Positions 2,909 to 37,480 of a DNA stretch of 41,051 bases are shown one piece after another. Under the pieces are notes generated by a model, which did not search any database, had not been told where the DNA came from, and was given only the letters and a program-made list of their open reading frames with translations. The stretch lies in the IMG/VR virus record IMGVR_UViG_2526164667_000035; one strand, given 5' to 3'. A program made the position numbers and the translations under genes. Position 1 is the first letter of the stretch; every line of letters begins with the position of its first letter. The DNA is from a virus (Duplodnaviria > Heunggongvirae > Uroviricota > Caudoviricetes).

Positions 2909-4104
2909 GACTCCACCGTTATAACGATATTTTCCGGGGTACAGGACGCAGATTCGTTATATCTGATATCAATGTTTGATGATGACAAAGCCCCCGGGGA
3001 TTTCCCAATCGTCAGTTCCTGAATATCGTAATAGCGTGCATTCCCGCCACTCACCACGCCAAGATTCGCCGGTGAGTAAATGCGACTTAAAAGGACCGAA
3101 TCACCAATCATCAGACTATTGATATAGTCGGAAATAGCCTGCTGGATCTGCTGCCCTATCTGTGAGGTATAACCCGTAAAAACTTTTAATTTAATCCGGG
3201 CATAAACAGGCACATCACTGGAACGCGAGAATTTGATTACATGGGGATTGCCGTATTTATCCGGAACCGTAACGGATGTTGTACCGTGAGTGGCTGTCCC
3301 CTGGCCTTTATTTCCTCTGATAGCCTGAGCAATATCCGTTACATCACCGCCATCCACAATTACAGCAACAGAGTGTGGCGGTAACCCGTTACCGTCCTCC
3401 GAACCAGTATCGTTTTCATAGAGTTTGTGGCGGGTTACACCGGTAACATTAGAAACAGCACCATCCAGTGCTTCAAATGGGGTTATTGATGGCAACGCAA
3501 CACTTTGCGACTGGCGGATACGTAACTCAGCGTCAGTTTCTGCCGGAGTGCCCACAGTAGCCGCAGCAGGATTAGTTACCGAAACCCAGCCACGGGTTGG
3601 CGTATTAATTTCAGTGATAGTTCCAGCCAGCGCCGCCACTGCACCTCTGACGGAACATTTTGCGGTCACCATCACTGTACCATCCACGCCGACCACCACT
3701 GAAGCAGGCAAACGCCATATCACATTATTACTGTCTTTCACGCTGCCATTAATGATGGTTGTTCCGGCAGTTCCTGTAAGAAGCAAATCAACCGTAGAAT
3801 TCGTCGCGCCTTTACGTGAAATACCATTTATTTTCACGTTACTGGTCAATGCAGCCCCATAGCCGGTTGCCGGTGAAAAACAGTTGTAGACAGTTATCGC
3901 CATATTATTGGCATCATGAATCGCCAGCGCCATCAGAGCCACCATCTGGCCGTCTTTGCTGTCCGGTTCGAGGTAGGCATCACTGCCATAAATCTGCTGA
4001 AAATAGCTAATCAGGGTGCTGAGTATCGTCTGATAATCAGGCGCACTGATCCCCTCCGCGGTTACCTTTGCAGATAAACCGAGAGAATCAAGGTTCAGAG
4101 CCAT
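2905..4104 (-). CDS. Baseplate J-like protein (Mu gp47 / P2 J family)
   Basis: 399-aa ORF, 4-bp overlap with downstream gene, conserved position upstream of the fibre genes. Confidence 0.7.
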   Translation of the reverse strand: MALNLDSLGLSAKVTAEGISAPDYQTILSTLISYFQQIYGSDAYLEPDSKDGQMVALMALAIHDANNMAITVYNCFSPATGYGAALTSNVKINGISRKGATNSTVDLLLTGTAGTTIINGSVKDSNNVIWRLPASVVVGVDGTVMVTAKCSVRGAVAALAGTITEINTPTRGWVSVTNPAAATVGTPAETDAELRIRQSQSVALPSITPFEALDGAVSNVTGVTRHKLYENDTGSEDGNGLPPHSVAVIVDGGDVTDIAQAIRGNKGQGTATHGTTSVTVPDKYGNPHVIKFSRSSDVPVYARIKLKVFTGYTSQIGQQIQQAISDYINSLMIGDSVLLSRIYSPANLGVVSGGNARYYDIQELTIGKSPGALSSSNIDIRYNESASCTPENIVITVES

Positions 4105-5271: not shown

Positions 5272-5442
5272 TTATTTTTTCTGTTTAAAATTGTCCAACT
5301 CAGGTTCTTTAACGCTTTCTGTCATGTAATCCAATCCATCAAAAGGTACTTCAAGCATTATACTGCTTTCATAATCAGCCATGGATTGCTCTGCTTGCGT
5401 TGGCTTACTTTGCTGTGAGTTGTCATTATTTGATGTTGTCAT
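5272..5442 (-). CDS. Small acidic hypothetical protein (56 aa), last gene of the AT-rich island
   Basis: ATG..TAA ORF below the ORF-track size cutoff (MTTSNNDNSQQSKPTQAEQSMADYESSIMLEVPFDGLDYMTESVKEPELDNFKQKK); 3 nt downstream of the preceding stop; weak SD. Confidence 0.35.
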   Translation of the reverse strand: MTTSNNDNSQQSKPTQAEQSMADYESSIMLEVPFDGLDYMTESVKEPELDNFKQKK

Positions 5443-5445
5443 CAA

Positions 5446-6001
5446 CTATGCCTTATTTATCAAAAGAAAAGTAACCGATAATATGAAAAAACCGAAAGAT
5501 AACGCAATTCCTTCAAAAAGATAACGAGCATAAACTGCCTTTTCTTTATGAAGACTTTCGATCAATTCAACAGCTTTACCATACTGAAACATATGGTATC
5601 TAAGCGTTTTAATTTTATCACCGTAAAGTAAAAAATCATGCTCTTCTTTTCGCTTATGAGTAGGCATTTTTGGTATATCTTTCAGTCCCCAAGTACGCCA
5701 TAGGAAAAAAAAAGCACATAACAATACAAACAAAGCACAGATATGCACAAAGTATAGATAATGTTAAAAACCAATTACTCTTTAGCCCACTTTTGAAATC
5801 AACAGTCCCAAATACAGCCAGTAGAGCAGAGGTTTCTACAGCTAAAATAGCAAGAAGGTAGTTAACTTTGTCCTCAAGACGACGATATGTTGATTTTGCT
5901 TCCTCATATCTATCTTTATAATATGACGAAATAAAATCAGCGCCTATAGTCTCAATTGCCTTTTGTTCTTCTGTTGTATCTATTGGCGAACGCTTGCTCA
6001 T
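5446..6001 (-). CDS. Hypothetical multi-pass membrane protein, split into two overlapping frames at a T9 homopolymer (frameshifted pseudogene or phase-variable gene)
   Basis: ORFs 5654..6001 and 5446..5748 overlap by 95 nt; both are hydrophobic across the overlap; a run of 9 T (- strand) at 5705..5713 sits at the junction; loss of one T would fuse them into about 184 aa. About 33% GC. Confidence 0.45.
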
Positions 6002-6008
6002 TTCTTAA

Positions 6009-6356
6009 TCAACCAACAACTTTCTTACACGGGAAAGAGCCAATAATTTTCGGAGCATCCATGCTGTTCTGCAACAACTGGACGTTCAGGAAACGCGTTT
6101 TAGTGCCCGGTCGATGGATATACTCGAACCCATAATTGTTGCCATCTTTGGCAGGCATCAGCTCCATTTTGATCTGCATGCCTGTACCGTCTTTACCCAA
6201 CATTTTTACTTTTTGGGACGTTACTGTTTCGCCATTGATTTTAAATAATGAGTCAGGGATCGCATCCATACGAAAGTTGCCGCATTGCATCGTTATGGTG
6301 TTTGCACTTACACCAACAGACACTAACGCCAGCAATGAAAATATCCATCGTTTCAT
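6009..6356 (-). CDS. Secreted/periplasmic hypothetical protein with Sec-type signal peptide (115 aa)
   Basis: Start at internal ATG (MKRWIFSLLALVSVGVSA-NT...) with GGAGAGG upstream; classic n-h-c signal peptide with AxA-like cleavage site; two Cys in mature part; lower GC than flanking tail genes. Confidence 0.55.
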   Translation of the reverse strand: MKRWIFSLLALVSVGVSANTITMQCGNFRMDAIPDSLFKINGETVTSQKVKMLGKDGTGMQIKMELMPAKDGNNYGFEYIHRPGTKTRFLNVQLLQNSMDAPKIIGSFPCKKVVG

Positions 6357-6358
6357 TT

Positions 6359-7423
6359 CTATAATCCTCTCCGCAAAGCAGTGCTGGATGGCATATCCTG
6401 CGCACCGCGCGCTTCGCACATCATATCCATGTACCACGCCTGGCCCCTTGTGTCGCCAGTGTACATAATCCCGCGCACAATATAAACGCCATCCGTTGCG
6501 ATGCTGGCAGGCTGCGCGGTGGTACCGCTGAGCGTGATATTTCCGTCCGTGTTCTGGTCGGTGATCTGCCCGCCGGCCATCGCGATATCGTTGTTCGACA
6601 GCGCGGTGCGGAATACTGAAGCCTGATCCAGCTGAATGAGCCCGTTAACCCGGATGTTCGGGTTAATCAGCGCGCGGACGTTTACGCCGTTGCCGATAGT
6701 CTGCTGTGGCATACCGATAAGCCCCGTGGCACTGTTGAGCACAATCGCGTCGTGAACATATTCGTTATTCGCTACCATCTGGCGCTGACCATCCACAAAC
6801 TGCCATGTTGCGCCACATTGTCCGGCCACGTTATCCATAAGATGACGTGTCATGCCGAATAGCACCTGGCCCCGGGGGAAAACGGTAGCAGGCATTTCAG
6901 GCGTCAGACCTTCAGTCGCGCCTTTGGCCTCGAAGTCTTTCATCAGCGCGCGATTCACGTCTGCGACCGTATAACCGGCCGCCAGCGTCTGCGAAGTTAT
7001 GCTGGTGGCAAAAGCCAGATCAGTATCTGCTGCCTGAATCAGGACGTAGGAATCAACCGGACTGTCTTTTCCTGTGACCGAGTAGCGAATTTCACCGCTG
7101 AAAATTAGTCCGTAGTTGCGGCCATCACTCTGGCCCACGTCCGCCGCGTCAACTTCCCGCACAGTCCCGACGTCGCTTGCCGACACCTCCGGCGCGATAC
7201 CGTCGTAACCCGCAATCAGACGCACTTTCGAAAATTCCTGCCCGGTGATTCGGTTCACAGTATCTGCCGAGAGGTTATAAATTTTGATAGTCCCTACCCG
7301 GGACGCACTGCTGATGTTGAACCAGTCGATCGTAAAGGTGACTTTAAAATCACTTAGCTCAATTCCCTGACCGTTCCCGTCCACAAGCTGCAGCTCGAAA
7401 TGTCTCATCCAGTTCTGTGACAT
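6359..7423 (-). CDS. Baseplate hub-like protein (Mu gp44 / P2 D-like position)
   Basis: 354-aa ORF downstream of tape measure and two small tail genes; assignment by size and synteny only. Confidence 0.5.
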   Translation of the reverse strand: MSQNWMRHFELQLVDGNGQGIELSDFKVTFTIDWFNISSASRVGTIKIYNLSADTVNRITGQEFSKVRLIAGYDGIAPEVSASDVGTVREVDAADVGQSDGRNYGLIFSGEIRYSVTGKDSPVDSYVLIQAADTDLAFATSITSQTLAAGYTVADVNRALMKDFEAKGATEGLTPEMPATVFPRGQVLFGMTRHLMDNVAGQCGATWQFVDGQRQMVANNEYVHDAIVLNSATGLIGMPQQTIGNGVNVRALINPNIRVNGLIQLDQASVFRTALSNNDIAMAGGQITDQNTDGNITLSGTTAQPASIATDGVYIVRGIMYTGDTRGQAWYMDMMCEARGAQDMPSSTALRRGL

Positions 7424-24565: not shown

Positions 24566-26729
24566 CCGCCTCAAAAATTCGAGTCATTTTCCCCCCAATT
24601 CGCCTTTGGGCACGCTTATACCCGCAATTTTGCAAAACATTACTAATTCGCATTTCTTCGCGTTTTCCGATGCGGTCAGGATTTAGCCCAATCGCATCAC
24701 GCAAAACATCACTTGCGCGTAAAAATTCGCAATTTCGCGGAAGTTCATTAGTCATCAGGTCTGGCGTGTCGAGCCATTTCTCTACCGTTTCAAGCCAAGC
24801 ATCCTTGATGGTGTACTGTTCATGGACACTCGCTGCCAGTTGTTCAGCCTCACGGAACTGGATACCCCCCAGACGCTGAAACACCTCACGAGCCTCAGCC
24901 CAAAGTAAAAGGAGATCTCTTTTTATCGCTTTCACGTCGACTTTCGACACTTCCACGGGGAGCCAGCGACGGTTACCAGTCTTGTCCGCAAGGAATTCGT
25001 CCTCATTGGTGGTACCAACGAACACCAGGCGACGAGGAAACTGGGTGGCGAACTCCCGGTATTTCGGGATCCAGTTTTCGTGAGTACGCGTCACAAACGC
25101 TTTGATTGACTCCAGCTCTTTGGTATTAAGTCCGCGCAGTTCACCAATCTCTGCCACCAGCCGACCACGCATTTTTCGAGCGAGATCATCGTCTTTTTCG
25201 GCAAAAGAGATTTCAGTAAAAAACGCAGGATCAGGGCTCAGTGCCTCCACTCCGGAAGACTTACCGCAGCCCTGCGGACCAACGAGGATCGGCACCATAT
25301 CCGCTTTGATGCCTGGCTCCAGTACTCGCCCCGCCAACGCGGTCCACATGTACATAGACACCGCACGGGTATAAGGCGTGTCGGCGGTACCGAAGTGCGT
25401 ATGGTAGAAACATTCGATGCGCGGCACGCCATCCCACTCCAGTCCGTTCAGCCAGGTGATCGCTGAATCGAATGGTTGTTCATCGGCTGCAAGTAACACC
25501 ACATCGCGAATAAGTTCACGACCAACAGGTTTAAATCCCCGCTTTTCCATCGTGATGCGCAGGCGCGCATAATCCGCATCGGTGAAGGCCTGCCACTGGC
25601 CGGAGCCTGCCTGGGCGAACATGATTTCGTCACGGAACTGGTCAAAGCGAATATCGATGTCCACGAAGTCAGGACGCACAACGGCTTTTGCCGCGTTGCT
25701 GATGGTGGCCTCGATGCGGCCCCATTTGTCGCGCTCGAACGCCGGCAGCGGTAACGGCTCGGCCACTTCGGTGCTGGTCAGGTCTTCGAAATCGTCGTTG
25801 CGGATCCCGATGGCATTAAGGAAATCGCCGTCGTCGCGGTGCGCGCAGCTAGCGTGCAGGCACTTAAAATGCCCCTGCTCAAAGCCCGCGGTACCGCCCG
25901 GGAAGTAAACCGTGCTCGTCGGGTCGCCGCCGGTGCTGTGGCCGTCTTCGAACGGGCAACGGATATAGCGCTCGCCGTTCGCGCCGTCCAGCAGCGTCCA
26001 GCCATTGGCATCGAGATATTCCGCCGTATCATCCGTGGCGCCGGGCGTGAAGGTTGAACGGTCGCGCATCTTCGTGCTGCCCGCTTCGGTGGTGACCGAC
26101 ACAGGTAACTGTTCCGCCAGTCGCTGCCACAGCGTTTCAAGCTGCTCACCAGTAATAGCCGGAGGTTCATCCGGCAAACCGCCGTCCCATTCGATACGCG
26201 CGCCGCTGCTGTGCGTACCGCAGGCAACAAACTGCTGCCCGTTCGCCAGCAGCTCGATAATCCCCATATCGCCCGCCAGACGGTGGATGCGCTTACGGAA
26301 ATCGCCGTCAACGGCCAGCAGGTACAGGCATTTGTTACTGTTGGCGCGCCAGCGACGCGGCGGCAGCTCACCAAGCAGCTGCACCAGCGTTTTGCGAATA
26401 TCGGCCTGGATATCTTCGTCTTCGCTGTCGCAGTCCAGCGCCAGCCAGCCATGGCCTGTACGCACGCAGATGCCATAATCCGGTTCATTCGACCAGCGGG
26501 CAAAATCATGCTCAGTAACAACATGACCGGTCCATTGAGCAATACCGGTGACCTGACGGTCCCGGTTATAGCGACTTGGCGTCTTACCCAGCGCTTTCAG
26601 TTTACTGTCAGGGGATATAGTCGCACCGGGGTTACATACAACTGGGAGAAGATGAGCAGTTCGCCCCAATACCAGGTCGAAATGAAACCACTCATCAGGC
26701 GTAGCTCCCCATGGTTTGCTATCAGACAT
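24537..26729 (-). CDS. Replication protein: primase-polymerase-like N-terminal region fused to P-loop NTPase/helicase
   Basis: 730 aa; acidic DxD-type motif (LALDCDSEDED), Cys/His cluster (CLHASCAH), Walker A GPQGCGKSS in the C-terminal half; ends within the iteron array. Confidence 0.65.
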   Translation of the reverse strand: MSDSKPWGATPDEWFHFDLVLGRTAHLLPVVCNPGATISPDSKLKALGKTPSRYNRDRQVTGIAQWTGHVVTEHDFARWSNEPDYGICVRTGHGWLALDCDSEDEDIQADIRKTLVQLLGELPPRRWRANSNKCLYLLAVDGDFRKRIHRLAGDMGIIELLANGQQFVACGTHSSGARIEWDGGLPDEPPAITGEQLETLWQRLAEQLPVSVTTEAGSTKMRDRSTFTPGATDDTAEYLDANGWTLLDGANGERYIRCPFEDGHSTGGDPTSTVYFPGGTAGFEQGHFKCLHASCAHRDDGDFLNAIGIRNDDFEDLTSTEVAEPLPLPAFERDKWGRIEATISNAAKAVVRPDFVDIDIRFDQFRDEIMFAQAGSGQWQAFTDADYARLRITMEKRGFKPVGRELIRDVVLLAADEQPFDSAITWLNGLEWDGVPRIECFYHTHFGTADTPYTRAVSMYMWTALAGRVLEPGIKADMVPILVGPQGCGKSSGVEALSPDPAFFTEISFAEKDDDLARKMRGRLVAEIGELRGLNTKELESIKAFVTRTHENWIPKYREFATQFPRRLVFVGTTNEDEFLADKTGNRRWLPVEVSKVDVKAIKRDLLLLWAEAREVFQRLGGIQFREAEQLAASVHEQYTIKDAWLETVEKWLDTPDLMTNELPRNCEFLRASDVLRDAIGLNPDRIGKREEMRISNVLQNCGYKRAQRRIGGKMTRIFEAVSQPVPTSK

Positions 26730-27017: not shown

Positions 27018-27710
27018 ATGATTAATGATCGTATTCGCGAGGCTCGTCGCAATGTCCACCTAACGCAGGATGCGCTTGCTAAACGTATTGGTCTAACTAA
27101 AGCCACGATTTCACAATGGGAATCCGGAAACACCACACCTAACGGGAAAAATCTTATAAATCTGGCCGAAGCATTGAACGTTTCTCCAGAGTGGCTACTT
27201 TCAGGCAAAACAAGCGATACCAAAGAAATACATTCTAATGCACAAGTTGAGGGGGGGTTTTCTGTATGGGACTCATCAACGCCATTAGAGGATGATGAAG
27301 TGGAAATACCGTTCTATCAGGAAATTGAACTATCTGCCGGTAATGGTACTTATGTTGATATAGATCGAATGGGATGTAAGTTAAGATTCGCCCGTTCAAC
27401 GTTGCGCAAAGCAGGTGTTGACGTAAATTGTGCGGCTTGTGTCAGCATCCACGGCAACAGCATGGAACCGGTATTACCAGATGGCGCTGTCGTCGGCATA
27501 GATACATCAAAAACAGGTGTAAAAGATGGTCAAATGTACGCTATAGACCAAGACGGATTACTTCGTGTCAAACTATTGTACCGTCTCCCAAGCGGACTCC
27601 GGATACGCTCTTTCAATAGGGATGAATACGCAGACGAAGAGTATTTTAATCAAGAGGCTAATAAAATCAGGATTATAGGCCAAGTATTTTGGTACTCCGT
27701 TCTGCTCTGA
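27018..27710 (+). CDS. CI-like prophage repressor (N-terminal HTH, C-terminal S24 LexA-like peptidase domain)
   Basis: N-terminal HTH (LTQDALAKRIGLTKATISQWESG) and C-terminal GNSMEP serine motif with downstream Lys; GAGGG SD 7 nt upstream. Confidence 0.85.
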   Translation: MINDRIREARRNVHLTQDALAKRIGLTKATISQWESGNTTPNGKNLINLAEALNVSPEWLLSGKTSDTKEIHSNAQVEGGFSVWDSSTPLEDDEVEIPFYQEIELSAGNGTYVDIDRMGCKLRFARSTLRKAGVDVNCAACVSIHGNSMEPVLPDGAVVGIDTSKTGVKDGQMYAIDQDGLLRVKLLYRLPSGLRIRSFNRDEYADEEYFNQEANKIRIIGQVFWYSVLL

Positions 27711-30712: not shown

Positions 30713-31261
30713 ATGAAACTGAAGCTGAACAATGTTCGTCTGGCCTTCCCGTCTCTGTTTGAAGCTAAAACTGTAAACGGCGAAGGCGATCCGCGTTTCT
30801 CCGCAGTATTTTTAATGTCTCCCAAACACCCACAACTGGAAGAAATCCGTAAAGCTATGAAGCAGGTAGCGAAGGAAAAATGGGGGGAGAAGTGGGAGTC
30901 CATTTATAACCAGCTGGAGAAAAAACTCAATCTGTGCCTGCATGATGGTGATGAAAAAGCAGAGTATGAAGGCTTTCCCGGCAATTTCTTCCTGAACGCT
31001 GCTAACAAAGCGCGCCCAGCTGTTCTTGATCGCGATCGTTCGCCACTAATTCAGGCTGATGGACGTCCCTATGCAGGGTGCTATGTAAACGCCGTTATCG
31101 ATATCTGGGCACAGGACAATAATTTCGGTAAACGCATTAATGCCTCACTCGGCGGAGTCCAGTTCCTGCGAGACGGCGATGCATTCGCTGGCGGCGGAGT
31201 GGCAAGCGCTGACGATTTCGACGATATCAGCGAAGGTGCTGATGCTGAAGCACTAATTTAA
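30713..31261 (+). CDS. DUF2815-like protein (phage single-strand DNA-binding-like)
   Basis: N-terminus MKLKLNNVRLAFPSLFE resembles DUF2815; sits between DUF2800 and the DNA polymerase as in known phage replication modules. Confidence 0.55.
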   Translation: MKLKLNNVRLAFPSLFEAKTVNGEGDPRFSAVFLMSPKHPQLEEIRKAMKQVAKEKWGEKWESIYNQLEKKLNLCLHDGDEKAEYEGFPGNFFLNAANKARPAVLDRDRSPLIQADGRPYAGCYVNAVIDIWAQDNNFGKRINASLGGVQFLRDGDAFAGGGVASADDFDDISEGADAEALI

Positions 31262-31312
31262 AAATATTCATCCCCCAGCTACGTGCTGGGGTATCTCATG
31301 AGGGAAAGGATA

Positions 31313-31954
31313 ATGTCACAGCCCGTATTAACTAATCACCTTAAAACTCAAATCATCAATAACGCACTTGAGAAAGCGGGTATCCCCAAACGTAAATCAG
31401 CACTACGAGCTGCTCGTGTTGAATGGGCCGAACGTGTTCGGCTTGCAGCTATCGGGGGCGTAGAGAAAGACGCTGAAATATTAAAAAATATAAAAAAGAT
31501 TGAATCCATGGTAACAAAAATCCCTGATTCATTAAAAACCAATAGTTCTTTAATTCGAAAAGATTGCTGCATATATCTCAATCTGGCTGGAGCCAGAGCA
31601 AACATTTATTTCAATGGCAACTACAGAGGTTATGAATCAGGAGCCCCCGAGCATATTAATAAAATAGCACCTGCAGAATTTACTCTACTTGGCGAAGATC
31701 CTCTGGTAACGGAGTTTTATAGCTTTGATGCTCTCTACACACAAATTAAAAGTGATGAAACCGAAATCATACAGAACGTCAGCGCGGCTCTAAATAAAGT
31801 TCGGACAGTAAAACGATTACTGGATGTATGGCCCGAAGCTAAAGAACTGCTTCCAACAGACGCACCGCCAGTCCCTTTAGCACCAGCAGTACATCGAGAG
31901 ACATTAAATGAAATGATAGGCCTTCCTACCAATACAGTGTCTGATACTCAATAA
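31313..31954 (+). CDS. Hypothetical protein, AT-rich (213 aa)
   Basis: Start at ATG with GAAAGGA SD; markedly lower GC than flanking genes; no motif recognised. Confidence 0.5.
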   Translation: MSQPVLTNHLKTQIINNALEKAGIPKRKSALRAARVEWAERVRLAAIGGVEKDAEILKNIKKIESMVTKIPDSLKTNSSLIRKDCCIYLNLAGARANIYFNGNYRGYESGAPEHINKIAPAEFTLLGEDPLVTEFYSFDALYTQIKSDETEIIQNVSAALNKVRTVKRLLDVWPEAKELLPTDAPPVPLAPAVHRETLNEMIGLPTNTVSDTQ

Positions 31955-32637
31955 CAAGGGGGATGCTTATTATATGATTTTGAACGTTTTACAATCTCGT
32001 TAAGAGGCGTGAAATCAAAATCTCTGAATAACACATCAGGATACTTCGCTCTTGCTTTATCCAGCAGGCCAGTTAAAGTATTTTTTGTGTTACCCAACAT
32101 TGTATTAACCGCCACTACATGTCTAATTTCTGGAGGTTTATCTATACCACCAGAAATTGCTTCATTAAGAACCGACGCCAGTGGGGTTTGTCCCTTACTT
32201 GTTGAATCCCACAGCGTCATTAACAGACGAGCTGCGTCTATAAATAGCTTTTTGTCAGCATTTGGCTTGACAGTAATACCGGAACTACCAGAGCCAGAAC
32301 CGGAACGTTCTATTGCTGCACTGGTATCCGATTTCATAGGATTAAATAACGGCAGCTCTGTACAACCGATACGCCGAATGAAATCCTTTGCAACATCTCT
32401 ACCACAGAAAAAAGCCCCTGTACAATTTTCATCAGAGCGTTTTTTAAATGAAAAACAATAGTACTGATCGGTTAACGGATAACCGGAATAACTGGTTTTA
32501 GTTTGTCCAGTAATAAGTTTCAGGTGTGCAACAGGCTGAATAATAAAATCCCGAACTATCGCATCTTTTATGTCGTTACCACGGTGACAATAATATTCAG
32601 GTAATCCATTAGGCTGTCTCTTATTACCCACAGTCAT
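31948..32637 (-). CDS. Hypothetical Cys-rich two-domain protein on the opposite strand, AT-rich (229 aa)
   Basis: Strong AAGGAGG SD; N-terminal region with Cys/His positions (CH...C...C...C...C), SGSGSGSSG linker, then a C-terminal domain; 7-bp convergent overlap with 31313..31954. Confidence 0.55.
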   Translation of the reverse strand: MTVGNKRQPNGLPEYYCHRGNDIKDAIVRDFIIQPVAHLKLITGQTKTSYSGYPLTDQYYCFSFKKRSDENCTGAFFCGRDVAKDFIRRIGCTELPLFNPMKSDTSAAIERSGSGSGSSGITVKPNADKKLFIDAARLLMTLWDSTSKGQTPLASVLNEAISGGIDKPPEIRHVVAVNTMLGNTKNTLTGLLDKARAKYPDVLFRDFDFTPLNEIVKRSKSYNKHPPCY

Positions 32638-32698
32638 TAGTTGCCTCCTTTAATTCATGATATCTAGCATTTAACCATATACCATATGAGGATATTTT

Positions 32699-34762
32699 AT
32701 GTCCAATATACTATGGGGCGACCTGGAAACCTATTGTGACATTCCGATCAACAACGGTACCCATGCGTATGCCGAAGGCGTTGAAGTGATGCTTTTCGCA
32801 TGGGCTATCAACGACGGGCCAGTAAATGTGTGGGATATCACTGCCGGTGGTGGTATTCCACACGGCTTATACGAAGCAATCGCAGACCCTGAAACCCTGC
32901 TTTATTTCCATAACTCTCACTTCGACCGCACCGTTCTGCGTTATGCAATGCCGCGACTGGCACCGCCAGTCGAACGTTGGCGCGACACGATGGTGCAGGC
33001 GCTGGCGCACGGTCTCCCGGGGTCTCTGGGGGAACTCTGCGAAATACTAGGCGTCCCGCAAGACAAAGCGAAGGACAAAGAAGGTAAAGCGCTGATCCAG
33101 CTGTTCTGTAAGCCACGCCCGAAAAACAGCAAACTGCGTCGGGCCACCAGTAAAACCCACCCGGAAGAATGGCGGCGCTTTGTTGATTACGCCGGACTGG
33201 ATATCGAGGCAATGCGCGAAGTCTATAAACGTCTGCCGAAGTGGAATTATCAGGGGACAGAGCTGGCGCTCTGGCATCGTGATCAGCAGATCAACGACCG
33301 GGGCGCCTGCATGGACATGCAACTCGCGCGCGCTGCGATCGAAGCGGTAGACCAGGAGCAAAAGCGCTTGGCAAAGCGTACACAGGAAATGACTGATGGC
33401 GAAGTGCAGGCAGCCACACAACGGGACGCGTTGATTAAGCACATCGTTGAATCCTACGGTGTGGAGCTACCAGACATGCAACGCAGTACCCTGGAACGTC
33501 GTATAGCCGACCCCGATTTACCATCTGCCGTGAAAGAACTGCTGGCTATCCGCCTGCAAGCCAGTACTACCAGCACCAGTAAATACAAGGCACTGATGAA
33601 AGGCGTAAGCCACGACGGGCGCTTACGCGGTACGCTACAGTTCTGCGGGGCGTCACGTACCGGTCGTTGGGCCGGACGGCTATTCCAGCCCCAGAACCTT
33701 CCCCGCCCTTCACTAAAACAGGAACAAATAGACGAAGGCATCGAAGCACTGAAAGCCGGATGTGCAGACCTGCTGTTTGACAATATCATGGAACTAACCA
33801 GTTCAGCGTTACGTGGCTGCATTATCGCGCCAACAGGCAAAAAACTGGTGGTAAGTGACTTGTCAAACATTGAAGGCCGTATGCTGGCATGGCTGGCGGG
33901 AGAAGAATGGAAACTGAATGCATTCAGAGAGTACGACGCCGGAACGGGTCCGGACTTATATAAACTGGCGTATGCAAAAGCTTTCGATATTGCACCAGAT
34001 GATGTTGATAAACACATGCGTCAGATCGGTAAAGTCATGGAACTCGGTCTGGGTTATGGAGGTGGTGTATCGGCTTTCATCACTTTTGCTCTGGTTTACG
34101 GTCTCGATCTCGACGAGCTGGCGAACGCCGCGCTGCCAAACATTCCCCGCGATGTTATCCGCGAGGCGAAAAGCTGGTACGACGAATCGGTTAAACGTAA
34201 GTCGACCTTTGGCCTGTCCGAGCGTGTATTCATCGCATGTGACTCGCTCAAGCGCCTGTGGCGCAGGGCGCACCCGGCGACCTGCGATTTCTGGTACGAG
34301 CTGGAGCGCACTGTCCGCACAGCAATCGCCACACCGCAAAAAACATTGTATTGCGGTTATCTTAAAATCCGCCGCGATGGCGCGTGGCTGCGCATACAGC
34401 TACCATCCGGACGCGCTGTATGCTACCCGTCTCCGGTTATCGAACAAGGGAATATCACCTACATGGGTGTTAACTCTTATTCGCGTAAATGGCAACGACT
34501 CAAAACCTACGGCGGAAAGCTGGTGGAGAACGTCACCCAGGCGGCCGCCCGCGACGTTCTGGCCGGAAACATGCCGCTTATCGAAGATGCCGGTTACAGC
34601 ATTGTGCTGACGGTACACGACGAGGTGATCACCGAATCACCTGACACAGAAGATTTCAACGATAAAGCGCTTTCCGCGCTTCTCTCCACTAACCCCGAAT
34701 GGGCGCCCGATATCCCACTGAACGCTGGCGGTTTTGAGGCGTACCACTACCGTAAGGATTAA
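32699..34762 (+). CDS. Family A DNA polymerase with N-terminal 3'-5' exonuclease domain
   Basis: 687 aa; exonuclease-type motifs ([15 protein letters not shown]) and polymerase motifs ([16 protein letters not shown]; VHDEV). Confidence 0.85.
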
Positions 34763-34767
34763 CTCCT

Positions 34768-34983
34768 ATGTCATTTAAATACCGGGATAATCCACTTTAT
34801 TACAGGGCTGCAAGGGAGGCTTTGCGACTTGAACAATCCGGCGAATATGACCGGGCAGCGAAGGTCTGGGCAAAAGCCAACCGCGAATCACATCACGAAC
34901 TGAATCAGGAATGGAGTGAACGCAGATCTGATTTTTGCCTGATGCAGAATATGCGTGAAAAGCGTAAGGCGGTCGAAGAATGA
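34768..34983 (+). CDS. Small hypothetical protein (possibly ANR-like small regulator)
   Basis: 71 aa; vague resemblance to small prophage regulators by memory only. Confidence 0.35.
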   Translation: MSFKYRDNPLYYRAAREALRLEQSGEYDRAAKVWAKANRESHHELNQEWSERRSDFCLMQNMREKRKAVEE

Positions 34984-35279
34984 TCGTTTACGTTGCCGGG
35001 CCGATGAGCGGTTACGAGCAATTTAACCGCCCGGCCTTTCATTCCGCAGCAAAGAGGCTAACGGACAAGGGATATGTTGTGCTTAACCCCGCAACTTTAC
35101 CCGATGGTTTGACACAGGCTCAGTACATGGACATCTGCCTCGCAATGCTTCGCTGTGCCGATACGATTTATATGCTCAAAGAGTGGGAGTACTCTGCCGG
35201 CGCACGTGCAGAAAACGCGTTGGCAGAGAAACTGGAATTGAATGTGCTTTTTGAAGAGTGGGATTCAGATGGCCTATGA
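34980..35279 (+). CDS. DUF4406-like protein (nucleoside 2-deoxyribosyltransferase-like fold)
   Basis: 99 aa; N-terminal MIVYVAGPMSG...VLNPA pattern typical of DUF4406 as I recall it. Confidence 0.5.
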   Translation: MIVYVAGPMSGYEQFNRPAFHSAAKRLTDKGYVVLNPATLPDGLTQAQYMDICLAMLRCADTIYMLKEWEYSAGARAENALAEKLELNVLFEEWDSDGL

Positions 35280-35562
35280 ACGTGAGAGCCTTATCGAAAA
35301 GCACCTCGTCGCTGAAGTGAAAAAGGCTGGCGGTGTGGCCTTTAAGTTCGTATCTCCCGGTCGCCGCTCGGTACCGGATCGCATTGTTCTGCTACCCGGC
35401 GGCCGTCTTGTTTTCGTTGAATGCAAAGCACCCGGCAAAGCACCACGCGCCGACCAGTTGCGCGAGCACGAGCGGCTGCGCGAGCTGGGCTTTACCGTGG
35501 TGGTGCTGGATAGCAAAAATCTGGAGGGGATATTGTGCGGGGAGCCTATTACAACGAAATAG
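35269..35562 (+). CDS. VRR-NUC domain nuclease
   Basis: 97 aa from the internal ATG; PDRIVLLPGGRLVFVECKAPGK motif; typically paired with an SNF2-like helicase in phage genomes. Confidence 0.6.
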   Translation: MAYERESLIEKHLVAEVKKAGGVAFKFVSPGRRSVPDRIVLLPGGRLVFVECKAPGKAPRADQLREHERLRELGFTVVVLDSKNLEGILCGEPITTK

Positions 35563-36548
35563 ACCCTAACGCAGCACAATGGCTGCGTAACCTTATTGCT
35601 GCGGGTCATATCGCCCCGGGTGAAGTTGATGAAAGGAGTATCGAAGATGTCGCACCAGACGACTTGCGCGGATTCACACAGTGCCATTTCTTCGCCGGGA
35701 TCGGCGTCTGGTCTTATGCTCTGCGTCTGGCCGGACGGCCGGATAACAAACCGGTCTGGACAGGAAGTTGCCCGTGCCAGCCTTTCAGCTCGGCTGGTAA
35801 AAGCGCTGGGTTTGATGACGAGCGGCACCTATGGCCAGCACTATTCCACCTCATCAGCGAGCGACGCCCTAAGCTGGTATTTGGCGAACAGGTTGCGGGA
35901 GTCAATGCCTGGTTCGATCTTGTACAAACTGACGTGGAAGCAGTGGACTACGCCTTTGGGCTTGTCCCGTTTCCGGCTGCGGGCGTCGGTGCCCCGCATA
36001 TCCGAGATAGAGCGTATTGGGTGGCCGACGCCAGCGGCGAGCGACCACAGCGGTGGCGAAAGCGCCTCAATAGCATTGAGGAAGATGTCTGGAGATCGTC
36101 GACCGTCCGGCAACACGCTACACAGCTCCCTGCGGGATTTTGCTCACCTGGCGGGGTGGTACACCCCAACCTGCAACACAAACCCACAGCCGGAGACAAA
36201 ACGCGGTCTAGAAACCTTAGCGGGGCTATCCAGATTAGCGGGATGGCCGACAGTGACGACGGTCGACAACAACCAAGTTCGTGGCGAGGGCCCAGCAGCC
36301 AATCATACCAAACGGGGAACGCCCCTCGGCGGCCCAATACGATTAACAGCTGCTGGGATGATGCTGACTGGCTCCTCTGCCGGGATGGTCGCTGGCGGCC
36401 AGTTGAATCCGGCACATTCCCGTTGGCTCATGGGATTACCTCCAGAGTGGGACGACTGCGCGCCTACGGCAACGCGATAGTCGCACCAGCTGCCGCAACA
36501 TTCATCCGCTCGTTTATGGAATGCGCAGGATACGACCTCATCTGTTGA
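35535..36548 (+). CDS. DNA (cytosine-5) methyltransferase
   Basis: Motif I FAGIGVWS (FxGxG), motif IV PCQPFS, ENV-like GEQV, RxR-type HIRDRAYWV; GTG start with GGAGGGG SD. Confidence 0.75.
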
Positions 36549-36550
36549 TA

Positions 36551-37480
36551 TTATGGGTTAGGTAATGCACGATTATTAAAATTATCAATAATTTGCAACG
36601 CCGCCGTTTGTCCGCCAGCCAATAGCCCTGCTTTACTCAGAAGGTATTTAGGGAATTTGGTTGGTAAATAAACCGCACGAAGCCAGTGCCTGAATACAGC
36701 TAAAGCATTATCAGGGTATGCATAGACCATTTGGGGATTACTTGCGGATTGGTTGAATTCTTCAGGGTAATAGTGCTGGCAGCGTTGTCTTGGGCCAATC
36801 GTCGCATCGTAGTTGGAAGAAGACCAGTAGCGAGCCCAGTGCTGGCCCACACTGATATCCGGTACAGTGTACTGGTTTACTGCTAATCCAGCATGGATGA
36901 GGTCTACCATTAAACCGGCAATTTCATTGAATACAATGAAATGTCCAGCAGGAACCGAGTTTGCCCCATGCATGATTGACACACGAGAGTGGTAATGACG
37001 CCAAGGGTCATCAGGTATGTAGCCAAGCGCTGTATAGATGTAACCACGCATACCCGCACGGGATAGCTCACGGAAAAACTGTAGCGCAGTAGGAGTTGCA
37101 GCACTTTGAGATACAAATGCGTAGAACTCCAGAATAGCCATACAGACTACTTCTGGGTACGCATAATGGACTGACCCATCTTTGTTGATTGGGATATAAA
37201 GAGTCGGCTCATTATATTGCTCACGCTGTAAATATGAGCTGATAAACTCCATACGCCCTCGAGCGAAAACTCCGTGGCGGAAGCTCTCTTCCCACTCTCG
37301 AGAAATATCCGCGATATTACTACGATGCACCCCGCAAATCCTGGCCAGCCCATTTTGCGTAAGGTAGGAGATCCCGTTCTGAAGAACCCCCATTTCTATT
37401 TCGTTAAAAACCCCCTCAGTACTAACACCTAAGTCCAGTATTTGTTGGGGTGCGGGTTGCTGACCACCAAATTCACTCAT
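36551..37480 (-). CDS. Hypothetical protein with putative N-terminal HTH, opposite strand to neighbours (309 aa)
   Basis: Segment ISYLTQNGLARICGVHRSNIADISREW looks like a helix-turn-helix; convergent with the methyltransferase and divergent from the helicase. Confidence 0.5.
   Translation of the reverse strand: MSEFGGQQPAPQQILDLGVSTEGVFNEIEMGVLQNGISYLTQNGLARICGVHRSNIADISREWEESFRHGVFARGRMEFISSYLQREQYNEPTLYIPINKDGSVHYAYPEVVCMAILEFYAFVSQSAATPTALQFFRELSRAGMRGYIYTALGYIPDDPWRHYHSRVSIMHGANSVPAGHFIVFNEIAGLMVDLIHAGLAVNQYTVPDISVGQHWARYWSSSNYDATIGPRQRCQHYYPEEFNQSASNPQMVYAYPDNALAVFRHWLRAVYLPTKFPKYLLSKAGLLAGGQTAALQIIDNFNNRALPNP

What the first reader, a model, noticed from the sequence alone, without database searches (positions are those of the whole stretch)
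31283..32698. AT-rich convergent gene pair inserted in the replication module, one gene antisense to the operon
Two genes of about 40% GC sit between the DUF2815-like gene and the DNA polymerase, which are usually adjacent. One (31313..31954, +) follows operon polarity; the other (31948..32637, -) is antisense, has a strong AAGGAGG site, and encodes a Cys/His-rich N-terminal domain joined by an SGSGSGSSG linker to a second domain. They overlap tail-to-tail by 7 bp. I recognise neither. Composition, orientation and placement mark it as acquired cargo: a candidate defence, anti-defence or nucleic-acid-targeting function.
Basis: partly seen in the sequence, partly recalled or inferred. Interest (0 to 1): 0.7.

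Follow-up and report, generated by a model that had tools for sequence, protein, structure and literature searches.

The report
Prophage cargo slot, uncharacterised antisense gene
Between two replication genes of an E. coli prophage lies a slot where cargo is swapped in and out; here it holds a known phage accessory gene (Nmad5) and, on the opposite strand, a self-contained gene of an uncharacterised family that looks like a prophage-carried host-protection gene, although its function is untested.

Summary
In detail: two AT-rich genes (41% and 40% GC against 51%) sit between the DUF2815 ssDNA-binding gene and the family-A DNA polymerase, converging with a 7-bp overlap. The window is an E. coli prophage.

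Gene 1 is a clear Nmad5 (PF18757) protein, a widespread phage early accessory family.

Gene 2 belongs to PF27729 "UCP028583", which is catalogued but uncharacterised (429 clusters at 50% identity). It matches no defence, PHROG or PDB family and has no convincing structural relative.

The interval is a recombination hotspot. In 159 related E. coli prophages the flanks stay about 98% identical while the cargo varies: Nmad5 + gene 2 (27 genomes), Nmad5 + a small membrane protein, single membrane proteins, AntA/BRO, or a SIR2 defence candidate (PDC-S25).

Nmad5 and gene 2 assort independently, so they are not a two-gene system.

Gene 2 works alone. It recurs antisense to polA in a diverged lineage. 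It also survives intact (dN/dS about 0.1-0.16) in Dickeya, Enterobacter and Morganella chromosomes, flanked only by decayed polA and Nmad5 relics.

Another antisense gene in the same operon is BstA.

Best reading: a lysogeny-expressed, single-gene host-protective factor, probably acting on nucleic acid. An obligatory zinc site is not supported.

The parts
30713..31261 (+). DUF2815 / Enc34-type ssDNA-binding protein; conserved left boundary of the cargo slot
   Evidence: Pfam PF10991 E=2.4e-44. Sequence identity among prophage variants stops right after its stop codon.
31262..32698 (.). Variable cargo slot (1437 bp, 40.2% GC) of the early replication operon
   Evidence: Lowest-GC stretch of the window. 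It is replaced by at least 7 unrelated cargos in 159 related E. coli prophages whose flanks are about 97-98% identical.
31313..31954 (+). Nmad5 family gene (213 aa), sense to the operon
   Evidence: PF18757 E=2.1e-54, full-length match; phrog_1965 E=2.9e-57. RefSeq names it an Nmad5 family protein. Homologues occur in 154 phage records in varied early or accessory positions.
31948..32637 (-). Gene 2: PF27729/UCP028583 family protein (229 aa), antisense to the operon, soluble, two domains
   Evidence: Homologues carry the precomputed tag PF27729 'UCP028583'. There are 429 family representatives. No hit in local Pfam, PHROGs, NCBIfam, PADLOC or PDB. dN/dS is 0.10-0.16. No TM segment.
32326..32637 (-). 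Gene 2 N-terminal alpha/beta domain (aa 1-104; helices 14-17, 21-30 and 80-90; strands 31-40, 58-66 and 73-79), with conserved C17, R19, H38, D57, Y59, Y60, F62, C78, G79 and the LPLFNP motif
32269..32325 (-). Low-complexity Ser/Gly linker (aa 105-123, includes SGSGSGSSG)
   Evidence: pLDDT below 50 over residues 105-123. Variable in length and sequence across the family.
31951..32268 (-). Gene 2 C-terminal all-helical domain (aa 124-229), with near-invariant N178, W143 and F209
32644..32650 (-). Ribosome-binding site AAGGAGG of gene 2
   Evidence: Read directly from the sequence.
32670..32706 (-). Conserved promoter-like block of gene 2: -35-like TGGACA (the reverse complement of polA codons 1-2, ATGTCCA), an 18-nt spacer, and extended -10-like TGGTATATG followed by GTTAAA. 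It overlaps the polA RBS and start codon.
   Evidence: The block is kept in all orphan and phage copies (alignment A4). The promoter assignment is inferred: the simple consensus scan did not call it.
32699..34762 (+). Family-A DNA polymerase; conserved right boundary of the slot, head-to-head with gene 2
   Evidence: PF00476 and phrog_17 E=1e-125. Identity among variants resumes at its ATG.
36551..37480 (-). BstA abortive-infection defence gene. This is context: a second antisense gene in the same operon.
   Evidence: PADLOC BstA E=3.3e-110. BstA was characterised in PMC8585504.

Best explanation
The DUF2815-polA interval of this temperate E. coli phage is a recombinational cargo hotspot with two sub-slots.

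The sense sub-slot holds Nmad5, an early-expressed phage accessory protein of a known but biochemically uncharacterised family.

The antisense sub-slot holds an autonomous single-gene cassette, a PF27729/UCP028583 protein with its own RBS and promoter. The -35 of that promoter overlaps the polA start codon.

Because gene 2 points against the repressible early operon, it is most likely transcribed in the lysogen and shut down by convergent early transcription on induction.

Its product most likely protects the lysogen, by superinfection exclusion or abortive infection against other phages. It would probably act on or bind nucleic acid through its N-terminal alpha/beta domain, with the helical C-domain as partner or regulatory module.

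Shown: the hotspot structure, the gene identities, the independence of the two genes, purifying selection, and survival of gene 2 after prophage decay.

Inferred: expression in lysogeny, the promoter assignment, the protective role, and the nucleic-acid target.

Confidence by layer: hotspot about 0.9; Nmad5 identity and independence about 0.9; autonomous host-retained gene about 0.8; defence function about 0.4.
For: Hotspot:
- 159 of 5426 complete E. coli genomes carry the module. The cargo differs while the flanks stay 97-98% identical, and the boundaries fall exactly at the DUF2815 stop and the polA ATG.
- Alternative cargos include a SIR2 protein matching PADLOC PDC-S25 (E=4e-157) and four unrelated small membrane proteins on the antisense strand.
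- In the same operon, a second antisense gene is BstA (E=3e-110), a proven lysogeny-expressed prophage Abi protein (PMC8585504). The sister phage carries a TIR PDC-S35 gene after polA.

Autonomy of gene 2:
- No partner is conserved across about 20 contexts. These include sites inside a type I R-M locus next to HigB, next to SIR2 genes in Dickeya and on a Pectobacterium plasmid that also carries ToxN, beside TA modules, in P2-like prophages, on a pneumococcal ICE, and beside serine recombinases.
- Orphan copies in Dickeya, Enterobacter and Morganella retain the intergenic block plus 20-50 bp of polA (z=5-25). Two also retain a decayed Nmad5 C-terminus (z=5.3 and 8.7). Gene 2 itself stays intact, with dN/dS of 0.11-0.16.

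Nucleic-acid hint:
- One family member is fused to a cold-shock domain.
Against: - No experimental or homology link to any known defence protein. PADLOC v2 gives nothing for 55 diverse members.
- There is no convincing structural relative, so the biochemical mechanism is guesswork.
- Defence-island association is anecdotal (about 20 loci), not statistical.
- The consensus promoter scan found no sigma-70 site upstream of gene 2.
- Gene 2 keeps the same head-to-head position with polA in a lineage with only 56-73% protein identity. That could instead mean a function tied to the replication module.
- Presence on conjugative plasmids and ICEs also fits an anti-defence or DNA-transfer role.
Confidence: 0.45

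Rival explanations
1. Gene 2 is a counter-defence (anti-defence) or DNA-entry-protection factor that serves the mobile element, not the host. It would be made early by phages, ICEs and plasmids to neutralise a host immune system.
For: Family members sit on a pneumococcal ICE near the relaxase, UmuC and TA region, on mobilisable and conjugative plasmids, and in phages. Nmad5 next door has been linked to escape from Tmn defence in Dhillonvirus (PMC11846954).
Against: It is antisense to the early operon, whereas anti-defence genes are normally co-transcribed with early genes. Intact copies persist under purifying selection in chromosomes after the phage has decayed, which favours a host-beneficial role. 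Alternative cargos in the same sub-slot are membrane proteins, and other hotspot cargo is SIR2, TIR or BstA, that is, defence and not anti-defence.
Confidence: 0.15
2. Gene 2 is functionally tied to the replication module. It could be a regulator or inhibitor of the phage polymerase. Alternatively its divergent, overlapping promoter and its full-length antisense RNA could gate polA expression between lysogeny and lytic growth.
For: The same head-to-head placement next to polA occurs in E. coli, in a Pantoea prophage and in IMG/VR phages with co-diverged backbones. The -35-like element overlaps the polA start codon and RBS. The operon mRNA must read through 690 nt of antisense gene 2 to reach polA.
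Against: 132 of 159 related E. coli prophages lack gene 2 and use unrelated cargo without losing the module. Inducible phages of the family (vB_EcoM-606R2) lack it. Most family members, including P2-like phages, ICEs, plasmids and Firmicutes elements, have no PolA neighbour. The orphans retain the coding sequence under selection without any polA.
Confidence: 0.15
3. Nmad5 and gene 2 form a two-component system (toxin/antitoxin, or sensor/effector with self-immunity), and the convergent 7-bp overlap couples their expression.
For: At least 26 of the 27 gene 2-positive E. coli genomes have Nmad5 adjacent. Relics of Nmad5 flank two orphan copies. Cloning of a Dhillonvirus Nmad5 was reported to be toxic.
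Against: Nmad5 occurs without gene 2 in about 26 E. coli prophages, paired with an 89-aa membrane protein, and in 154 phage records, none of which has gene 2. Gene 2 pairs with DUF2303 in another lineage. It is alone elsewhere, with Nmad5 decayed while gene 2 stays intact.
Confidence: 0.07
4. Gene 2 is a selfish or neutral moron with no benefit to phage or host, maintained only by hitch-hiking in a recombination hotspot.
For: No function can be assigned. The family is patchy: 27 of 5426 E. coli genomes.
Against: Strong purifying selection (dN/dS 0.10-0.16), including among orphan copies whose flanking phage genes have decayed. The family spans Proteobacteria, Firmicutes and Actinobacteria with near-invariant residues.
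Confidence: 0.08

Closest known systems
BstA (prophage-encoded abortive-infection protein; Owen et al. 2021, PMC8585504)
   Same: A single-gene, two-domain, soluble protein of about 230-310 aa carried by temperate phages. Its distribution is split between prophages, 'prophage-independent' chromosomal copies and plasmids. A BstA gene occupies another antisense position in this very operon.
   Different: No sequence similarity: gene 2 gives no PADLOC BstA hit. BstA typically lies downstream of the repressor. No aba-like self-immunity element has been looked for or found. Gene 2 has no demonstrated phenotype.
Defence/moron hotspots of temperate phages and satellites (P2 old/tin/fun and P4 hotspots, lambda rexAB/sieB region). 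Recalled from established literature; the cI-N hotspot is mentioned in PMC8585504.
   Same: Conserved core genes flank a short interval in which unrelated, AT-rich, often antisense genes are exchanged. Some cargos are recognisable defence genes: SIR2 PDC-S25, and TIR PDC-S35 in the neighbouring slot.
   Different: This hotspot lies inside a DUF2800-DUF2815-PolA replication operon. To my knowledge it has not been described, and my literature searches found nothing on it. Most of its cargos are unknown.
Nmad5 family (PF18757; Iyer et al. 2013, cited in PMC11846954)
   Same: Gene 1 is a full-length member (E=2e-54). Like other members, it sits among early or replication genes of phages.
   Different: Nothing distinguishes it from the family. 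Its biochemical role is still unknown: 'nucleotide modification associated' is a context-based name. In Dhillonvirus a point mutation gives escape from Tmn, but deletion does not.
PF27729 / UCP028583 (uncharacterised conserved protein family)
   Same: Gene 2 and all its homologues carry this precomputed assignment. They share the same length and two-domain layout.
   Different: The family has no assigned function and no literature. The Enterobacterales subfamily has a roughly 15-residue N-terminal extension and extra, non-conserved cysteines.
DUF151/BFN bifunctional nuclease fold (TM0160, PDB 1sj5) and small zinc-binding folds (zf-PARP, C1, RING)
   Different: The scores are below a convincing level, with 11% identity. 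There is no CxxC knuckle. The ligand-like residues are lost in 8-25% of members.

Membership tests
Nmad5 (PF18757), gene 1 | Full-length match to the family HMM above the gathering threshold | tested here: met
   185.2 bits against a cutoff of 27, residues 6-205 on profile positions 3-206 of 206. phrog_1965 E=2.9e-57.
Nmad5 (PF18757), gene 1 | Phage or prophage context among DNA replication or modification genes | tested here: met
   Here it lies between DUF2815 and PolA. Homologues lie in an N4-like replication module, lambdoid N-cIII and nin regions, and next to the eiAU primase.
PF27729 / UCP028583, gene 2 | Significant sequence membership across the full length | tested here: met
   The exact protein (P0001) and all homologues carry precomputed PF27729. 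A profile search returns 429 representatives aligned end to end. The model itself is absent from the local Pfam copy.
Classical zinc-finger / structural Zn domain, gene 2 N-domain | Four conserved Cys/His ligands in a fixed spacing across the family | tested here: not met
   Only C17 (92%), H38 (83%) and C78 (86%) are conserved, plus D57 (75%). 113 of 224 members have all four. C61, C72 and C92 are lineage-specific.
Known anti-phage defence families (PADLOC-DB v2), gene 2 | HMM match to a catalogued defence or candidate defence protein | tested here: not met
   Only IetA at E=0.032 for one of 55 members, which is noise.
Prophage cargo/defence hotspot, the interval | Conserved flanking core genes with sharp homology breakpoints | tested here: met
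   Breakpoints fall at the DUF2815 stop and the polA ATG in 7 variants. The flanks are 97-98% identical.
Prophage cargo/defence hotspot, the interval | Multiple unrelated alternative cargos, some of them recognisable defence genes | tested here: met
   At least 7 cargo types, mutually non-homologous. SIR2 = PDC-S25, E=4e-157. PDC-S25 is itself a candidate system, not a validated one.
Prophage cargo/defence hotspot, the interval | Cargo confers protection against phage infection | not testable with these tools
   Requires plaque and growth assays.
Two-gene toxin-antitoxin or sensor-effector system (Nmad5 + gene 2) | Conserved co-occurrence of both partners | tested here: not met
   Each gene occurs without the other.
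BstA family, gene 2 | Sequence similarity to BstA | tested here: not met
   Gene 2 gives no BstA hit. The window's real BstA is at 36551-37480.

The most novel reading that the evidence does not exclude
PF27729/UCP028583 is a new, widespread, single-gene anti-phage defence family (429 clusters at 50% identity across Proteobacteria, Firmicutes and Actinobacteria). Its N-terminal domain has a fold without solved relatives and senses or attacks phage nucleic acid. The DUF2815-polA interval of this E. coli prophage family would then be an undescribed defence hotspot, whose other cargos (four unrelated small membrane proteins) are also new exclusion or Abi genes.
Probability: 0.35. Interest if true: 0.7.

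Novelty: new member of a known kind. Interest (0 to 1): 0.5.

Why it matters
Prophage hotspots have been one of the most productive places to find new bacterial immune systems. This interval has everything needed for a quick experimental test:
- sharply defined borders;
- about 160 natural allelic variants in sequenced E. coli;
- recognisable defence cargo (SIR2, with TIR and BstA in neighbouring slots);
- at least five cargo genes with no known function.

The antisense gene studied here is the best of these leads. It belongs to a broadly distributed family with no annotation, no structural relatives and no partner gene. It has also been kept intact by bacteria after the surrounding phage decayed, which is a signature of domestication. 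Assigning it a function would annotate hundreds of protein clusters on phages, ICEs and plasmids.

The work also corrects two tempting misreadings. The two genes are not a functional pair, and the domain is not an obligatory zinc-binding domain.

Tried and rejected
Searches on gene 2 that found nothing useful:
- Local Pfam, PHROGs, NCBIfam, PADLOC and PDB sequence searches on the protein: no hits.
- Profile searches with A2 and A3 against PDB: no hits.
- Scans of 55 diverse members against Pfam and PADLOC at E<=1: only scattered noise.
- tblastn of gene 2 against 50,697 GenBank phage records: no match.

Structure:
- BFVD gave nothing.
- afdb50 was unavailable.

Ideas tested and rejected:
- That the alternative antisense cargos (89, 166, 199 and 209 aa) are diverged gene 2 homologues. 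hhalign probability was <=1%, and they are membrane proteins.
- That the orphan chromosomal copies are independent of phages. Rejected, because they carry polA and Nmad5 relics.
- A PD-(D/E)xK reading of the H38-x-K40 / D57 pattern. Considered from the topology and dropped: the motif order is wrong and there was no fold support.

Other negative or unavailable results:
- Rfam scan of the slot: nothing.
- Consensus promoter scan: no call upstream of gene 2.
- Literature searches for PF27729, UCP028583 and WP_000215799: nothing.
- The Iyer et al. 2013 Nmad paper is not held.
- The broad alignments A2 and A3 were too diverse for locus scanning.
Full report
OBSERVATION. They converge and overlap by 7 bp. 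Gene 2 has AAGGAGG 6 nt before its ATG. GC is 41.0% and 39.7% (GC3 30% and 29%), against 50.6% for the window, 49% for the upstream DUF2815 gene and 54.5% for the polymerase. The 1437-bp interval is the lowest-GC stretch of its size in the window. The Ser/Gly linker coincides with the only internal low-confidence segment of the AlphaFold model (residues 105-123), which separates an alpha/beta N-domain from a helical C-domain.

WHAT THE WINDOW IS. The window is 100% identical to a prophage of E. coli EC20017429 that is integrated beside yfhL. One arm runs cro-like, VapE primase, Q, lysis and structural genes. The other arm runs CI-like repressor (27018-27710), DUF2800 nuclease, DUF2815 SSB, the slot, family-A polymerase, ANR, DUF4406, VRR-NUC, Dcm, SNF2 helicase and integrase. 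Induced phages of the same family exist, for example vB_EcoM-606R2.

GENE 1. Gene 1 is a full-length Nmad5 protein (PF18757, E=2e-54; phrog_1965), and RefSeq annotates it as such. Nmad5 homologues occur in 154 GenBank phage records in many early or accessory positions:
- the lambdoid N-cIII interval (mEp235);
- the nin region (SPN3UB, 63% identity);
- next to the eiAU primase;
- inside the N4-like replication module (Pollock);
- in Vibrio myoviruses.

The only functional data I found concern Dhillonvirus. There a point mutation in nmad5 allows escape from the Tmn defence, deletion does not, and the gene was toxic to clone (PMC11846954). Gene 1 is therefore a known kind of phage accessory gene with an unknown biochemical role.

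THE INTERVAL IS A CARGO HOTSPOT. The DUF2815-PolA block is found in 159 of 5426 complete E. coli genomes. The flanks stay about 97-98% identical while the content between them changes:
- Nmad5 + gene 2: 27 genomes, all >=99% identical;
- Nmad5 + an 89-aa antisense gene;
- single antisense genes of 209, 199 or 166 aa;
- AntA/BRO-N plus a 199-aa antisense gene;
- a sense-strand SIR2 protein.

Homology between variants stops immediately after the DUF2815 stop codon and resumes at the polA ATG, and every cargo is AT-rich at 29-46% GC. The SIR2 allele matches the PADLOC candidate defence system PDC-S25 (E=4e-157). The alternative antisense genes are not homologous to gene 2, and all of them are predicted membrane proteins.

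Two further observations about the same operon matter. The antisense gene at 36551-37480 is BstA (E=3e-110), a characterised lysogeny-expressed prophage abortive-infection protein (PMC8585504). The sister phage carries a TIR PDC-S35 gene directly after polA. This operon is therefore repeatedly used to carry defence-type cargo.

GENE 2: FAMILY AND CONTEXTS. Close homologues are rare: 17 clusters among 5.8 billion proteins, all from Enterobacterales. An exhaustive profile search finds 429 representatives at 50% identity, nearly all standalone proteins of 200-230 aa. They come from E. coli, Dickeya, Morganella, Enterobacter, Pantoea, Xanthomonas, Streptococcus pneumoniae, Fannyhessea, Eubacterium, Staphylococcus and Clostridium, among others. 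All carry the precomputed Pfam tag PF27729 'UCP028583', which has no function and no literature.

No neighbour is conserved. The gene appears:
- inside a type I R-M locus next to HigB/HTH;
- beside large SIR2 genes in Dickeya, and on a Pectobacterium plasmid that also has ToxN;
- beside RelB/ParE, epsilon/zeta and YefM/YoeB modules;
- on a pneumococcal ICE;
- between gpS and baseplate J of P2-like phages in two lineages;
- next to serine recombinases.

It is thus a single-gene cassette that lives in accessory regions of mobile elements.

GENE 2: HISTORY. A diverged phage lineage (two IMG/VR contigs and a Pantoea stewartii prophage) has the order DUF2800, DUF2815, a 125-aa ORF, DUF2303, [gene 2 homologue, antisense], PolA. 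Protein identities to the window are PolA 73%, DUF2815 61%, DUF2800 59% and gene 2 56%. Gene 2 is therefore a long-standing resident of this position in some lineages. Its sense-strand neighbour there is DUF2303, not Nmad5.

More telling are the 'orphan' copies in Dickeya, Enterobacter, Morganella and an unnamed metagenome contig. Upstream they keep the gene 2-polA intergenic block plus the first 20-50 bp of polA (Smith-Waterman z=5-25 against shuffles; alignment A4). Two of them also keep a decayed Nmad5 C-terminus just past the stop codon (z=5.3 and 8.7, one with in-frame stops). These are relics of the same Nmad5-gene 2-polA arrangement in which only gene 2 has remained intact.

dN/dS is 0.10-0.16 wherever dS is unsaturated, including among the orphans.

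The conserved upstream block reads TGGACA, an 18-nt spacer, then TGnTATATGGTTAAA. The TGGACA is the reverse complement of the polA start, ATGTCCA. I take this block to be the gene 2 promoter. That is an inference, and the simple consensus scan did not call it.

STRUCTURE AND RESIDUES. The models are of moderate confidence: pLDDT 78 with pTM 0.76 for the whole protein, and pLDDT 79 for the N-domain modelled alone.
- The viral structure library gives nothing.

Conservation across 224 members is as follows:

| Residues | Conservation |
|---|---|
| Y59, F62, G79, N178 | about 99% |
| C17 | 92% |
| H38 | 83% |
| D57 | 75% |
| C78 | 86% |
| All four of C17/H38/D57/C78 together | 113 of 224 members |

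C78V and H38Y/R substitutions are common. From the strand topology these four residues should converge at one edge of the sheet, but I could not measure distances. An obligatory structural zinc site is therefore not a family feature. A dispensable metal or catalytic site remains possible.

One family member carries an N-terminal cold-shock domain (TmCsp E=4e-4 over the full length), which is a weak pointer to single-stranded nucleic acid.

MECHANISM. The best-supported account is that gene 2 is an autonomous moron with its own promoter and RBS, oriented against the repressible early operon. It would be expressed in the lysogen and silenced by convergent early transcription on induction, and it would benefit the host, most plausibly as a single-gene exclusion or abortive-infection factor acting on nucleic acid. 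The hotspot, the autonomy of the gene and the selection on it are shown. The timing of expression, the protective role and the target are inferred.

The rivals are:
- an anti-defence factor of mobile elements;
- a replication-linked regulator, because of the conserved head-to-head placement and the promoter/start-codon overlap with polA;
- a two-gene Nmad5-gene 2 system, which independent assortment contradicts;
- a neutral hitch-hiker, which purifying selection contradicts.

COMPARISON AND NOVELTY. Functionally and ecologically the closest analogue is BstA, and the interval resembles the known cargo hotspots of P2/P4 and lambdoid phages. Gene 2 is not a member of any catalogued defence family. 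The family is catalogued (PF27729) but uncharacterised. I found no description of this hotspot or of the protein.

I rate the finding a new member of a known kind: a candidate new defence-type cargo gene in a previously undescribed but conventional prophage hotspot. Interest is moderate, at 0.5. It is a well-defined and easily testable lead, not a surprise in principle.

Noticed in passing
window 36551-37480 (-): A 309-aa antisense gene between the Dcm methyltransferase and the SNF2 helicase is BstA (PADLOC E=3.3e-110), a characterised prophage abortive-infection defence protein. RefSeq calls it 'hypothetical protein'.
   Followed up: partly
L001 6406-7167 (phage vB_EcoM-606R2), equivalent to window ~34763-36550: The region after polA is a second variable slot. 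The sister phage has a TIR protein matching PDC-S35 (E=1e-108) where the window has ANR, DUF4406, VRR-NUC and a C5 cytosine methyltransferase.
   Followed up: partly
L007 1307-1576, L008 602-1231, L009 576-1175, L010 565-1065, L011 2234-2833: The alternative antisense cargos of the same slot (89, 209, 199, 166 and 199 aa) are all predicted membrane proteins with no Pfam or PADLOC hit. They are candidate superinfection-exclusion or Abi genes.
   Followed up: partly
window 5401-6000: A second AT-rich patch (34% GC) in the structural-gene arm holds small minus-strand ORFs (5446-5748 and 5654-6001) with no family hit. It may be another moron.
   Followed up: partly
L038 6219-6998, L030 8923-9675: In the diverged phage lineage, the sense sub-slot next to the gene 2 homologue holds a DUF2303 (YfdQ-like) protein instead of Nmad5. 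This suggests Nmad5 and DUF2303 are alternative occupants of one position.
   Followed up: no
L006 7840-8000, L040 6840-7000, L041 6840-7000, L042 ~3560-3672: The orphan gene 2 copies in Dickeya, Enterobacter and Morganella chromosomes share about 165 bp of upstream sequence, including a roughly 11-codon decayed polA N-terminus. The copies are 87-94% identical across genera, which implies recent horizontal spread of a minimal cassette of about 0.9 kb.
   Followed up: partly
protein P0057 (residues 1-64); protein P0111 (C-terminal ~45 residues): P0057 is a natural fusion of a cold-shock domain to the UCP028583 module. P0111 has a C-terminal 'AKWD...KWWYIP' tail that, from memory, resembles the DUF5710 motif of plasmid primases. 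That resemblance is untested, and there was no PDB hit.
   Followed up: partly
L019 7001-7786; L049 and L050 ~5878-6615: Family members occupy the same gpS / baseplate-J interval in P2-like phages of two lineages. In L049 an antisense 442-aa gene sits alongside. This looks like another cargo slot.
   Followed up: no
NZ_CP034784.1 (hit H14), slot region: E. coli ECZP248 has an IS1A element inserted within the Nmad5-gene 2 interval.
   Followed up: no
window 25801-26400: A GC-rich patch (62.7%) lies inside the VapE primase gene, well above the window mean.
   Followed up: no
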